A stretch of DNA of 64,000 bases, from assembly GCA_964016885.1 (NCBI GenBank), contig OZ024745.1, positions 31,620,001 through 31,684,000 of the forward strand, written 5' to 3'. This stretch comes from Eledone cirrhosa. Taxonomy: Eukaryota. The notes beneath the pieces were generated by a model, which worked only from the letters and a program-made list of their open reading frames with translations, had not been told where the DNA came from and made no database searches. The translations under genes and the position numbers were made by a program. This document shows positions 47,432 through 60,240 of the stretch, piece after piece (within the stretch, counting starts at the first letter, position 1; each line of letters starts with the position of its first letter).

Positions 47432-47855
47432 TCAAAGGGCAAAGGAGCTCTTAAGAGTCAATGGCCATCCAAAATCACCGGGAGAGATGACTCCTTAACT
47501 CTGATATAACACCTGCAACCCTGATGGTATCCAATGATGTTGACTTGTTCTTCTTTTTGGTAAATATCATCTTGGTTAAGAGAGTGGGACTGGCTTTGTG
47601 CAGTGCCTTTGCTCACTATAAAAGCTTCACAGCACAGGCATTACTTTATATCTGGAGATCTCTCTGCACTTGTCGTCACATGGTACCATGGGCCCAGCAC
47701 TGTGTGTCAATAATTGTCACATGTGTAGTGTTTGTACCAGAATTTTCAAGTCGCAGGCTGGACTAAAAAGTCACACTCGTTCAGCGCATCGGTAGGGGTT
47801 CTCCTACATGGATATAAAGTAGTGGCCGTACTCGAAAACGAGTTGGCAGCCACCA
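47432..47855 (+). mobile_element. Non-autonomous bipartite RTE derivative (copy 1)
   Basis: RTE 5' UTR homology, a terminal C2H2 remnant and the RTE 3' hairpin. Near-identical to 55080-55491. Confidence 0.85.
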
Positions 47856-48336
47856 TATATATATATATATATATATATATGCATGGATGTGTTTGCATGT
47901 ATATATGTATGTGTGTGTGTGTGAGTGAGTGTGTGTGTAAGTGTGGGTTTTGGTGTTATATTTATATATATATATATATATATATATATATATATATATA
48001 TATATATATATATAGAGAGAGATAGATAGATAGATGAATGGATGTCTAAATACAGTTCATTAGGGAGATAGTATTTAACACGGTTGGTGGTGATGGTTGT
48101 GTTGGTGCTAGATCGGTGGTTTGTAAGTATGGGTGAAAAGGCGATTACATTCACTCAGTTCACGACCCGGTGCCCCAGCATGACCCCCAGCCCTTCGGCT
48201 GGAACGCAAATAAAATGAAATATACTGTAATATAAAATATTACTTATTCATATTTTAACACCCCCGGAGAAACGACATCAAAATCGACTGTGGAAGGATG
48301 TGATCCCAAAATGCTAAAGGTGCTAATTAAATAATG

Positions 48337-48420
48337 ATTTTAGGCACAAGGCCAGCAAAACATGCGTTCCCATACCGGAAATCGAACCCGGGCCGCTTGG
48401 ATAAAAGCCAGAAATCGTAA
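48337..48420 (-). pseudogene. 5'-truncated tRNA-Glu(TTC) retrocopy fused to the SINE family 1 tail
   Basis: 48367-48420 matches the tRNA-Glu 3' part (..GCGGCCCGGGTTCGATTTCCGGTATGGGAA), followed by CGCATGTTTT and GCTGGCCTTGTGCC. A 13-bp TSD TAATTAAATAATG flanks it. Confidence 0.8.
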
Positions 48421-56414: not shown

Positions 56415-57065
56415 ATGATGTTCCAGAACAATGTAAACGAGATAATTGCCAATTTGGGTTCTGGAACAAAAAAGATCATTGGCAATAAGGGCAGGGGCCC
56501 CAAGTTATCACAACCTGGGCCCGCCCGTCATCGTGCCATTGTAATAGAGCCAAACAGGGCATTTAGTCTTGGCTGCTGGAACGTACGGACGCTGCTTGAC
56601 AGGGATTCTTTGGAGCGTCCTGAACGAAGGACCGCTCTTGTTGCGAAGGAGCTTCGACGTTACGATCTTGACATCGTGGCTTTGTCTGAGACGAGGTTAG
56701 CTGGAGATGGTCATCTTACGGAATTTTGTGGAGAATATACATTCTTCTGGAAAGGAAGAGATGAAGGAACCAGAAGAGAGGCTGGGGTAGGATTTGCTGT
56801 TAAGACTGTACTGGTGAATAAATTGGAAGAATTCCCAGTGGGGATTAGTGAGCGTCTTATGTCCATGAGAGTTCCGCTGGACAAGGGAAGATATGCTACC
56901 CTGGTGAGTGTGTATGCTCCAACTATGAATTCTGTCGATGAAGAAAAACTGTCCTTTTACCATGCCTTGAAAGGTGTTTTAAGAAATATCCCTCAGGCAG
57001 ACAAAGTCATCGTGCTTGGTGACTTTAATGCTAGAGTGGGTAGGATTTTAACACATGGAATGTAA
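56415..57065 (+). CDS. RTE polyprotein N-terminal part: APE/EEP endonuclease (frameshifted from the downstream ORF)
   Basis: GCWNVRTL, DIVALSETR, GVGFAV, SVYAPT and LGDFNARVG motifs. Confidence 0.9.
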   Translation: MMFQNNVNEIIANLGSGTKKIIGNKGRGPKLSQPGPARHRAIVIEPNRAFSLGCWNVRTLLDRDSLERPERRTALVAKELRRYDLDIVALSETRLAGDGHLTEFCGEYTFFWKGRDEGTRREAGVGFAVKTVLVNKLEEFPVGISERLMSMRVPLDKGRYATLVSVYAPTMNSVDEEKLSFYHALKGVLRNIPQADKVIVLGDFNARVGRILTHGM

Positions 57066-59961
57066 TCGGAAGGCACATGGGGTGGGAAAGTGTAACAGCA
57101 ATGGTATGCTCTTGCTGCAGATGTGTGAGGAGCTGGATCTGTGTGTTACCAACACCATGTTCCAACAAAAGAACAAATTCAAGACCACATGGATGCATCC
57201 TGCATCTAAGGAATGGCATCTTTTGGACTACGTCCTAGTCAGGATGCGTGACAGACAGGATGTGCGGTGTGTTCGTGTTCTTCGTGGAGCTGAGTGCTGG
57301 ACGGACCACCGCCTGGTACGCGCAAAAGTGAATCTAATCACCAAACGTAAAATCCGGGCTCCTGGTGTTACCCTGCCCAAAAGATTGAATGCTGCTCGTC
57401 TTAAGGATAAAAATGTGAAGAGGACATTGGAAGAAGAGATGCAGGCTGCAGATCTTGGTGAGGATTGGCCGACCCTTAAAAAGTCGGTTTATGATGTAGG
57501 CAGACGTGTTCTGGGATTGGTGCAGAGAAAACATCAGGACTGGTTTAATGAGAGGGATGTGCATATAGATGACTTGTTGGCTGATAAGAGGCGCGCTCTG
57601 TCACGCTACTTGACGGCAAGACCACAGGAGAGGAATACGTTGCATGAGGAGCTCAGGGATGTAAAATCACGTGTTAGGCGGAGTCTTTCTCAGATGAAGG
57701 ATCAGTGGTGGAGTGAGAAGGCTGGTGAGATACAAACTGCGTCTGATTGCAATAACACAAAGCTGTTGTACAGTCTCTTGCGTGAGGTTTATGGACCGTC
57801 TTCTTCTCTGGTGACACCGATTCGCAGCAGGGATGGCAAAGAACTTCTTCGTGACTCACAGGGAATTCTACGAAGGTGGCGGGAGCACTTTGATGATCTT
57901 TTGAATCAGCCGTCTGTCGTCAGTGAAGATTTCCTCAATCTCATTCCGGAAAGTCCTGTGAAAGTAGCTCTCGCAGAGCCTCCGACACTTGTGGAGGTTG
58001 CAGTGGCTATTTCGAAGCTGAACAGTGGAAGATCTCCAGGTATGGATGGCATACATGCTGAGCTCCTACAATATGGTGGTGAGAGACTCCTGCAACATCT
58101 TCACTCTCTGTTTGGAAGGATATGGGCTAATGAATCCGTGCCTGAGGACTGGAGAGATGCAGTAATGGTGGTCTTGTACAAGGGAAAGGGTAACAGGAAT
58201 GATTGTGGGAACTACAGAGGTATATCATTGCTTTCTGTCGTGGGGAAAGTTTTATGTAGGGTGCTTCTGGACCGTCTGCTGACACACATTGCAGATTGTG
58301 TCCTTCCTGAAAGTCAATCTGGTTTTCGTGTTGGACGCGGCACTACTGATATGATCTTCTCAGCTAGACAGCTCCAGGAGAAGTGCATTGAACAGGGCTT
58401 GGATCTGTATCAGGTTTTTGTCGATCTGACAAAGGCTTTCGATACTGTCAACAGAGATGCATTATGGAAGGTTCTCCAGAAACTTGGTTGCCCTGATAAG
58501 TTCCTTGCTTTAGTTAGGTCTTTCCATGACGACATGAAGGCTTGGGTTAATGTCGGAGGTAACATGTCGGAGCCTATCTCAGTAAAAAATGGAGTGAAAC
58601 AGGGGGATATTCCAGCACCGACCCTGTTTGCCATATACTTTGCAATGGTTTTCTGTATTGCATTCAGGAATTGCGAGCATGGTGTTTACATCCGATATCG
58701 AACCTCAGGCAGCATATTTAACATCAGGCGCTTTGCTGCGAAGACAAAAGTATTTACATCAGTCATAAGAGACCTCTTGTATGCAGATGATTGCGATCTT
58801 GTAGCGCACACAGAGAGTGATATGCAGCACATTTTGAATGTATTTTCTGACGCTTGCACTGCCCTGGGTTTGACTGTCAGTCTCAAGAAAACCGTCGTCA
58901 TGTACCAACCTGCACCTGGTAGGCAGTACACTGAACCAAACATCTATGTGTATGGCAAACGACTTGGAGTGGTTGATCAGTTTGTCTACCTGGGAAGCAC
59001 TGTCAATCGATACGGCAACCTTGACAGTGAAATCTCACTTAGGATTAGGAAAGCAAGTGATGCTTTCGGAAAGCTAGAAAGGCGACTCTGGGGTCGGCGA
59101 GACATATGCAGGAGGACAAAGGTAAAGGTGTACAGGGCATGTGTACTCTCTTGTCTTCTTTATGCCTGCGAGACCTGGGTCGCATATCGACGCCACCTTA
59201 AGCAATTGGAGCGTTTCCATCAGATGTGTCTCAGACGGATACATGGCGTTCGCTGGAGGGACCACATCAGTGATGTCGAGATTTTGGAAAGCTCTATGTG
59301 TGACAGTATAGAAGCTCTTGTGCTTAAGCAGCGACTCCGTTGGAGTGGTCACCTTGCCAGGATGAAGGATTCTAGAATACCAAAACAACTCTTCTATGGA
59401 GAGTTGGTTAAAGGAAAACGACCGCCACATAAACCAAAAAAGAGGTATAAGGATTCCTTGAAGGCCTCTCTGAAAGACGCTAACATCTCTGCTGATACAT
59501 GGGAAAATATTGCTGCTGATCGTAATAAATGGAGAAAGACTGTATATGAGGGAAAAGTTGCCTTTGAGGCATCTCGAATCGCACACGAGAAAGTAAAGCG
59601 GGACGTGAGGAAGGGTATTGCTGTTGCACTTCCAGACGGCGAGGGTCCTCCTATGTTTCTGACATGCAGCGTCTGTGCGAGACTCTGCCTAAGCAAAGCT
59701 GGACTCGAAAGTCATCTTCGCAGTCATAAAGTAAGACCAGTGGTTGACTACCAGGCTGCTGTTGGAGATGCTACTCATCATGCTTGCCAAACATGTGGTG
59801 GAGAATGTAAATCAGCAGGAGGACTCAAGCGACATGCAAAAGTACACGAACTCCAACCACAGCCGACTATTCCCAGTAAATGTTTTGGTTGCCGACTCTG
59901 TGCAAGACATTTTGGATCATTGGCTGGGCTAAAAAGCCACATTCGATCGCAGCACTGTTAG
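57055..59961 (+). CDS. RTE polyprotein: end of APE domain, reverse transcriptase, three C2H2 zinc fingers
   Basis: [55 protein letters not shown], and CxxC-x12-H-x3/4-H three times at 59665-59955. Confidence 0.95.
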
Positions 59962-60240
59962 TTGCTATCGTGTGTTTGTGTGTGTGTGTGTGTGTGTGTG
60001 TAGATATGCTTATGTGCGTGCGTGTGTGTGTATATATATATGAATATGTATATTATTATTGTTGTTGTCGTTATTATTATTATTGCTATTATTATTATTA
60101 TTATTATTATTATTATTATTATTATTATTATTATTATTATTTTTTTTTTTTTTTTTATTTTTTTTATTTTATTTTTTTTTTTTTTTTTTTTTTTTTTTAT
60201 TGTGCAATGGCCATACTCGATAACGAGGGGGCAGCCATCA

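What the first reader, a model, noticed from the sequence alone, without database searches (positions are those of the whole stretch)
47432..60240. RTE LINE plus an amplified mini-derivative that retains the last C2H2 zinc finger
Seen: 47432-47855 and 55080-55491 are near-identical ~410-bp elements with the same internal junction. Their 5' half aligns to the LINE 5' UTR (about 56085-56301: GGGAG.GA.GA.CCC, TAGGAGAAGG, ACTC.GATATAA.ACCTGC, GATGTTGA.TT.TTCTT, GAGAGTGGGA.TGG, CACAGGCATT). Their 3' half encodes [23 protein letters not shown] in copy 2, matching the LINE end [23 protein letters not shown], followed by the shared CTCG-A.AA-CGAG hairpin and a TA tail. Known: RTEs spawn bipartite non-autonomous elements such as Bov-A. 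Inference: this one derives from a sister RTE family and disperses a zinc-finger coding cassette, a possible raw material for exonisation in a lineage noted for C2H2 expansion.
Basis: partly seen in the sequence, partly recalled or inferred. Interest (0 to 1): 0.72.

Follow-up and report, generated by a model that had tools for sequence, protein, structure and literature searches.

The report
Mini-LINE carrying leftover zinc finger
The two short repeats are cut-down copies of a young, very abundant 609-base jumping element that likely arose from an RTE-type retrotransposon by losing its middle and likely spreads with an intact RTE's enzyme; it still spells out that retrotransposon's last zinc finger, but the finger shows no sign of being preserved by selection and is unlike the host's own zinc-finger genes, so this is an ordinary kind of element.

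Summary
Observation confirmed, with corrections. Both repeats are 5'-truncated copies of a 609-nt element: an RTE leader joined to the 3' end of an RTE open reading frame. Evenly placed samples give about 41,000 copies (17,000-74,000), averaging 1.8% from the family majority, mostly inside TA/TATG microsatellites. The neighbouring LINE is only 69% alike in the leader, so it is a sister family, not the parent; the parent was not found. The C2H2 frame is real in both copies and intact in 28 of 39 unselected copies. It shows no purifying selection: private changes give omega 1.1 (0.55-2.5). The finger is the RTE terminal type; 0 of 385 host fingers resemble it, and it ends in a stop codon. Sister mini-elements keep half a finger or none, so the finger is likely a passenger kept because the parent's 3' UTR is short. 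No RNA data were available, so exonisation is unsupported, not excluded. This is a new member of a known kind (bipartite non-autonomous RTE, Bov-A type). The scan noted similar bipartite RTE elements earlier on other DNA of this genome.

The parts
47430..47855 (+). Mini-element copy 1 (unit positions 150-609, lacking 217-250), between (TATG)n and (TA)n
   Evidence: 1.9% from family majority
47688..47795 (+). Copy 1: 35-codon ATG-to-stop frame holding the C2H2 finger (ligand codons within 47724-47789)
   Evidence: Pfam zf-C2H2 25.1 bits, cut-off 25.2
55080..55491 (+). Mini-element copy 2 (unit positions 198-609), inside a TA/TATG microsatellite
   Evidence: one other copy 100% identical over these 412 nt on another contig
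55080..55280 (+). RTE leader (5' UTR) part of copy 2
   Evidence: 68% to LINE 56083-56301; same conserved block in mini-elements C and E
55278..55323 (+). Junction zone; likely holds a frameshifted remnant of the helix of the next-to-last finger
   Evidence: inference from H-to-C spacing equal to the LINE's and from loose ends; exact breakpoint unresolved
55324..55431 (+). Copy 2: 35-codon ATG-to-stop frame holding the C2H2 finger (55360-55425)
   Evidence: zf-C2H2 24.1 bits, E 4.7e-5, below cut-off
55432..55491 (+). 60-nt 3' UTR ending in the hairpin shared by the RTE families of this genome, followed by a TA/TATG tail
   Evidence: (z -2.1)
55763..60240 (+). RTE LINE (family A), 5'-truncated in its leader; very young copy
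   Evidence: 98.6-98.7% to two other copies over the whole length
56415..59961 (+). LINE ORF: endonuclease, reverse transcriptase, three C-terminal C2H2 fingers; frameshifted here (1 nt missing at 57043, 2 extra at 57074)
   Evidence: Pfam Exo_endo_phos and RVT_1 over cut-off; intact 1181-aa ORF in 3 of 3 other copies fetched
59659..59955 (+). Three C2H2 fingers of the LINE
60208..60240 (+). LINE 3' terminal hairpin, 28 of 33 identical to the mini-element's end
5681..5930 (+). Older related mini-element (family C) that keeps only the His half of a finger
   Evidence: 78% to the mini leader

Best explanation
This is a young, very abundant non-autonomous retroelement of 609 nt that joins an RTE leader to the last 170-215 nt of an RTE-type sequence, likely made by internal deletion of a sister family of the neighbouring LINE, likely copied by an intact RTE's enzyme, and carrying the last zinc finger as a likely passenger. 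Shown: the two-part build, dispersed copies with ragged 5' ends and a fixed 3' end, TA/TATG flanks, a 3' hairpin shared with four other RTE-type families, and no selection on the finger codons among inserted copies. Inferred: the leader drives RNA polymerase II transcription; an RTE protein recognises the 3' hairpin and inserts the RNA by target-primed reverse transcription into TA-type repeats; family A is the most likely donor of that protein, because it has many intact copies of similar youth and no parent was seen. The finger came along because only 60 nt separate its stop codon from the 3' end, so a retained 3' piece of about 130 nt or more includes it.
For: Unit and ragged 5' ends. Abundance: 19 copies in 12 of 138 evenly placed 10-kb stretches, about 41,000 genome-wide (Poisson 25,000-64,000; bootstrap 17,000-74,000). 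Youth: mean 1.8%, range 0.7-3.9%. Flanks: 61 of 86 copies have TA/TG-type repeat on the 5' side and 61 of 86 on the 3' side, against 3.9% of random 30-mers. Decay: private changes 36 nonsynonymous to 10 synonymous on 80 to 25 sites, omega 1.12, CI 0.55-2.5; zinc-ligand codons hit 6 times, 5.4 expected. Finger type: 34 of 50 RTE last fingers but 0 of 385 host fingers share at least 6 of 7 helix residues. Finger dispensable: family C keeps the His half only; family A's own mini-element and family E keep none. Active helper candidate: 150 of 150 scored family A matches at 99% or more, many in frames of over 1200 codons. The class is described in PMC5786205.
Against: The parent LINE was not found, so origin by deletion and the breakpoint are inferred. 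The helper is not shown; a low-copy parent could still do the job. The omega interval reaches down to 0.55, so weak constraint or a few selected copies would be missed. In the 19 evenly sampled copies alone the ligand codons were hit once against 2.8 expected, and none of 12 variants shared by three or more copies touches a ligand codon; neither is significant, but both lean the other way. Tests on inserted copies cannot see selection acting on source elements.
Confidence: 0.86

Rival explanations
1. The finger codons are kept because the source elements make a 35-residue single-finger peptide that helps the element spread, for example by binding its RNA or competing with the helper's own fingers.
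For: The frame has its own ATG in a strong context (A at -3, G at +4) and its own stop; it is intact in 25 of 36 unselected copies; no shared variant hits a ligand codon; this family looks younger and commoner than the finger-less ones (19 copies against 3-4 of the family A mini-element in 1.38 Mb).
Against: Eight ATGs lie upstream, one 8 nt before and out of frame. Nine of 12 shared variants change the peptide, and two related copies lack the ATG. Families with half a finger or none also amplified.
Confidence: 0.05
2. The cassette is raw material for host genes: some copies are spliced into host transcripts and add a C2H2 finger.
For: About 7 in 10 copies still hold an intact finger (28 of 39), so tens of thousands of intact frames exist and rare capture is possible.
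Against: A stop follows the finger, and reading upstream in the same frame meets a stop 22 codons before the ATG, so only a terminal exon could result. No TGEKP linker, which 252 of 457 host linkers have. No database protein matches it closely (best 58% identity among 150 listed of 262), which is weak evidence because host coverage there is unknown. No purifying selection.
Confidence: 0.05
3. The finger-coding stretch is kept as RNA, as part of a longer 3' signal that the helper enzyme needs.
For: Two families (this one and C) keep the stretch coding for the finger helix.
Against: The stretch mutates no more slowly than the leader (non-CpG 1.7% against 1.4%); the family A mini-element spread with only about 45 nt of 3' end.
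Confidence: 0.04
4. The two copies are a local duplication.
For: They lie 7.6 kb apart.
Against: 40 of 40 scored matches on many contigs are closer to copy 2 (99-100%) than copy 1 is (97.8%); the two have different 5' ends and flanks.
Confidence: 0

Closest known systems
Bipartite ORF-less non-autonomous RTE LINEs (Bov-A, RTESINE1/2, WALLSI3, RTE-N2_Lch; PMC5786205, parts 1-4 of 5 of the text read)
   Same: 5' end of an RTE leader joined to an RTE 3' end, no small-RNA head, microsatellite tail, dependence on a LINE protein (inferred here).
   Different: Longer (609 nt), and the 3' piece reaches into the coding region far enough to hold a whole C2H2 finger; the 3' pieces tabulated in that paper are about 40-90 nt. 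The parent is unidentified here.
Octopus RTE-2_OV (PMC9115989, 12 of 29 passages read)
   Same: Single-ORF RTE with endonuclease, reverse transcriptase and a C2H2 finger, reported as potentially active in octopus.
   Different: 1109 aa with one finger drawn, against 1181 aa with three fingers in family A; no sequence comparison was made, so identity with family A or with the parent is untested.
Triple-finger RTE lineage in sequence databases (unnamed proteins P0001-P0079)
   Same: 43 of 79 homologues end in three C2H2 fingers, the last with the same helix as the mini-element's finger and usually within a few residues of the C-terminus.
   Different: 45-55% identical to family A; none is the parent.
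Ceph-SINEs (PMC5786205)
   Same: Cephalopod short elements that hold a piece of RTE 5' UTR.
   Different: They have a tRNA head and a CORE-like domain; none was found here.
Host Kruppel-type C2H2 arrays of this genome
   Same: C-x2-C-x12-H-x3/4-H pattern.
   Different: Tandem arrays with TGEKP linkers; mean 2.4 and at most 5 of 12 inner residues shared with the mini finger, against a mean of 7.1 for RTE last fingers.

Membership tests
Bipartite non-autonomous RTE LINE | 5' part homologous to an RTE 5' UTR | tested here: met
   68-69% over about 220 nt to the family A leader
Bipartite non-autonomous RTE LINE | 3' part homologous to an RTE 3' end, with microsatellite tail | tested here: met
   terminal finger and 28 of 33 nt end shared with family A; hairpin shared by five families
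Bipartite non-autonomous RTE LINE | No endonuclease or reverse transcriptase; amplified as a unit | tested here: met
   609-nt unit, longest ATG frame 80 codons; same junction in all 45 further copies seen outside the top hits that reach it
Bipartite non-autonomous RTE LINE | Both parts near-identical to one autonomous parent | tested here: inconclusive
   parent not found in 1.38 Mb sampled, in other loci or in protein searches; a 94%-alike relative appears only as short contig ends
Bipartite non-autonomous RTE LINE | Polymerase II transcription and mobilisation in trans by an RTE protein | not testable with these tools
   inferred from ragged 5' ends, fixed 3' end and shared flanks
SINE in the strict sense (SINE2, Ceph-SINE) | tRNA-, 5S- or 7SL-derived head with polymerase III boxes | tested here: not met
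   0 tRNA genes in 4 loci; no such Rfam family among 16 matches to E 10; no A or B box within one mismatch in the first 200 nt (box patterns recalled)
RTE-clade LINE (window LINE) | Single ORF with AP endonuclease and reverse transcriptase, microsatellite tail | tested here: met
RTE-clade LINE (window LINE) | Placement in the RTE clade by a reverse transcriptase tree | not tested
   no named references were in hand; the label RTE rests on architecture and on recalled motifs
Host Kruppel-type C2H2 finger | Tandem fingers joined by TGEKP-type linkers | tested here: not met
   single finger followed by a stop
Exapted (exonised) transposon cassette | Purifying selection on the frame | tested here: not met
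   omega 1.12, CI 0.55-2.5, over 39 unselected copies; single exapted copies would not show
Exapted (exonised) transposon cassette | Spliced into host transcripts | not testable with these tools
   no RNA reads of the organism were on offer

The most novel reading that the evidence does not exclude
The element is a minimal coding retroposon: its source copies translate a 35-residue single-finger peptide from a strong-context ATG placed just behind the conserved RTE leader block, and that peptide helps it out-compete finger-less sister elements for the LINE enzyme, leaving some 29,000 intact finger frames in the genome.
Probability: 0.05. Interest if true: 0.7.

Novelty: new member of a known kind. 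Interest (0 to 1): 0.22.

Why it matters
As it stands it is a catalogue entry: one of the commonest young repeats of this genome (about 14 copies per megabase), useful as an insertion-polymorphism marker and worth masking, because its finger scores within about one bit of Pfam's C2H2 cut-off and could inflate finger counts in six-frame scans. It also gives a small natural series (whole finger, half finger, no finger) showing that what such elements keep follows the breakpoint and the length of the parent's 3' UTR. It argues against this element as a source of the host's C2H2 expansion. If the peptide were made and used, it would be a new sort of coding short retroposon.

Tried and rejected
Parent LINE: not found by sampling 1.38 Mb, by searching 50 further loci of families C and D, by a word-based protein search for longer proteins (2 candidates, none scored), among 79 RTE homologues, or with a distant homologue as query (44 of 44 matches at 49% identity; at least 7 are places already listed for family A; their DNA was not fetched). 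Genome searches score only the best 40-150 candidates, so a rare parent is hidden behind the mini copies; this leaves the parent question open. Family D was rejected as parent: its last finger and 3' UTR differ, and its end matches family E. Expression: no RNA holder listed, which says nothing either way; one run guessed to be RNA gave two low-depth contigs and another none. Ribozyme in the head: no Rfam match, head folds no better than shuffles (z -0.7). Nearness to host finger genes: 0 copies in 30 loci (92 kb); about 1 expected, so uninformative. The 50 top-hit copies were left out of the selection tests because they were chosen for likeness to copy 2. The omega of 1.7 is inflated by variants shared between copies and is not read as positive selection. 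The repeat finder was swamped by microsatellites. Target-site duplications could not be read inside the repeats. No age in years is given, as no mutation rate was in hand.
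Full report
Observation. The two repeats share 359 nt at 97.8% identity. The 5' half of copy 2 aligns to the LINE leader at 68%, far above shuffles. The finger region and the last 33 nt align to the LINE end. Both copies hold a 35-codon frame from ATG to stop with a C-x2-C-x12-H-x4-H finger; Pfam scores it 24.1 and 25.1 bits against a cut-off of 25.2.

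The unit. A genome search with copy 2 scored 40 of 1346 candidates; all 40 were 99-100% identical and lay on many contigs. Their flanks show a 609-nt unit with a fixed 3' end and ragged 5' ends. Copy 1 starts near unit position 150 and lacks 217-250; copy 2 starts at 198. No tRNA, no matching RNA family and no polymerase III box was found (box patterns recalled), so it is not a SINE in the strict sense.

Number and age. I took 138 evenly placed 10-kb stretches from large contigs (2 of 140 asked for did not exist; small contigs were not sampled). Nineteen copies of at least 100 nt, at least 88% identical and reaching the 3' end lay in 12 stretches. Four other hits were dropped: three cut by stretch edges and one inverted piece. 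That gives about 41,000 copies (Poisson 25,000-64,000; bootstrap over stretches 17,000-74,000). Of 105 hits in all loci then held, 89 remained after removing duplicates: 50 top hits, 19 neighbours, 19 sampled, and copy 1. The sampled and neighbouring copies average 1.8% from the majority, range 0.7-3.9%; 15 of these 38 are full length. Of 86 copies with readable flanks, 61 have TA/TG-type repeat upstream and 61 downstream, against 3.9% of random 30-mers. PMC13295347 (12 of 18 passages read) reports TA-related insertion signatures for other RTE elements, but also that Bov-B copies are rarely flanked by repeats like their tails, so the match is partial.

The neighbouring LINE. It spans about 55763-60240 and encodes an endonuclease, a reverse transcriptase and three C-terminal fingers. 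Three of three other copies fetched have an intact 1181-aa frame; the window copy differs by 11-12 substitutions and two small indels that shift the frame. All 150 scored matches to its last 213 residues are at least 99% identical, many in open frames of over 1200 codons, so family A is young and likely active. It is not the parent: the leader is 69% alike, the head differs, and the 3' UTR is 279 nt against 60. Three terminal fingers are common in this lineage: 43 of 79 database homologues have three, 7 two, 25 one, 4 none.

The parent and the junction. The parent was not found (see Tried and rejected). The spacing from a His upstream of the ATG to the finger equals that between the LINE's second and third fingers. 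In contigs of one sample, a relative about 94% alike departs from the unit just before position 429 (5 contigs in one run, 1 in another); I read those letters as D-L-T-R-H-I-G followed by the unit's S-H, the helix of a preceding finger, with 2 nt more than the unit has. This suggests that the 3' piece reaches back to about position 395-410. The loose ends are only 9-20 nt, so the relative could be the parent or an older mini subfamily, and family C resembles the unit across the same stretch. The breakpoint lies somewhere in 395-441.

Is the finger kept by selection? In 39 unselected copies it is intact in 28; the whole ATG frame is intact in 25 of 36; 5 match the majority peptide exactly. Private changes are 36 nonsynonymous and 10 synonymous on 80 and 25 sites: omega 1.12, interval 0.55-2.5. 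Counting all changes against the mutation spectrum of the non-coding part gives 82 to 18, expected 46.8 to 17.4, and 6 ligand-codon changes, 5.4 expected. Against my reading: the 19 sampled copies alone have 1 ligand change, 2.8 expected, and none of 12 shared variants (9 nonsynonymous, 3 synonymous) touches a ligand; neither is significant. Inserted copies cannot show selection on source elements.

Is it like host fingers? From 30 loci of host arrays I drew 385 distinct fingers; 252 of 457 linkers are TGEKP. They share a mean of 2.4 and at most 5 of the 12 inner residues with the mini finger; 50 RTE last fingers share a mean of 7.1. At least 6 of 7 helix residues match in 34 of 50 RTE fingers and 0 of 385 host fingers. 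A profile search of 1.84 billion representatives found 262 proteins at E 0.001 or better; the 150 listed are 32-58% identical. PMC12988792 (7 of 7 passages read) places the host expansion near 25 million years ago and favours a transposon-silencing role; nothing there derives host fingers from LINEs.

Sister mini-elements. Family A has its own mini-element with about 45 nt of 3' end and no finger (3-4 copies in the sample). Family C is older (88-94% between copies) and its majority reads only the His half of a finger; one copy lies at window 5681-5930. Family E keeps none. All end in a similar hairpin; in an alignment of 9 ends from 5 families, 2 of 9 predicted pairs change on both sides, which is modest support.

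Mechanism. Shown: structure, dispersal, flanks, shared 3' end, no selection among copies. Inferred: origin by internal deletion, polymerase II transcription, and copying in trans by an RTE protein, most likely family A's. The finger is likely a passenger of a short 3' UTR.

What is known. PMC5786205 (parts 1-4 of 5 read; supplement not opened) describes this class and names RTE as one of four clades that produce it. PMC9115989 (12 of 29 passages; supplements not opened) reports an octopus RTE with a C2H2 finger. Searches listed no paper on a bipartite RTE that keeps a whole finger (one search returned 0 papers with all five terms); most listings were seen as titles and abstract starts only. 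Repbase, Dfam and these supplements may already hold the family. That the genome is an octopus comes from earlier scan notes and fits the sequence; I did not test it. Earlier notes describe similar bipartite RTE elements elsewhere in this genome; a search by sequence found no note.

Verdict. A real, abundant, young element of a known kind; the exonisation idea has no support here and was not testable at the RNA level. Interest 0.22.

Noticed in passing
mini-element unit positions 195-204 (e.g. window 55080; L092, L069, L080): 5 of 24 truncated unselected copies start within this 10-nt stretch (p about 0.006 after allowing for 47 windows). It is where sister families carry a spacer between head and body; a processing site or a headless subfamily could explain it.
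   Followed up: partly
window 55763-56027; L310, L311 1-400; L060 934-1471: Young family A has a different 5' head from the mini-element, while an older family A mini copy sits behind a head 89% like the mini's. This suggests that family A swapped its 5' end.
   Followed up: partly
L061, L077, L081, L084, L086 (3' ends of family A copies): At least 5 of 29 printed copies break off in the (ATT)n run of the 3' UTR and continue with the same other sequence: a subfamily with another tail, or an element that inserts into (ATT)n.
   Followed up: no
window 55080-55491 in public runs X4-X19: Runs labelled as 13 other organisms hold 71-76% of its words. The three laid gave only 1-3 contigs of depth 2-15 at 99% or more. 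Trace DNA of this animal is the likelier cause; horizontal transfer was not tested.
   Followed up: partly
L002, L013, L092, L171: Copies pile up head to tail within TATG repeats, up to three to five per locus and mixed with other RTE families, as if each tail makes a new target.
   Followed up: partly
L022 640-1470 (-), L259-L278: An older RTE family (D, 80-92% between copies) with a different last finger; its 3' end matches mini family E.
   Followed up: partly
window 12764-13204 (-), 15479-15919 (-), 31048-31473 (-), 37464-38246 (-): Frames that look by eye like decayed retroelement proteins (GIY-YIG-like and reverse-transcriptase C-terminal pieces; labels recalled).
   Followed up: no
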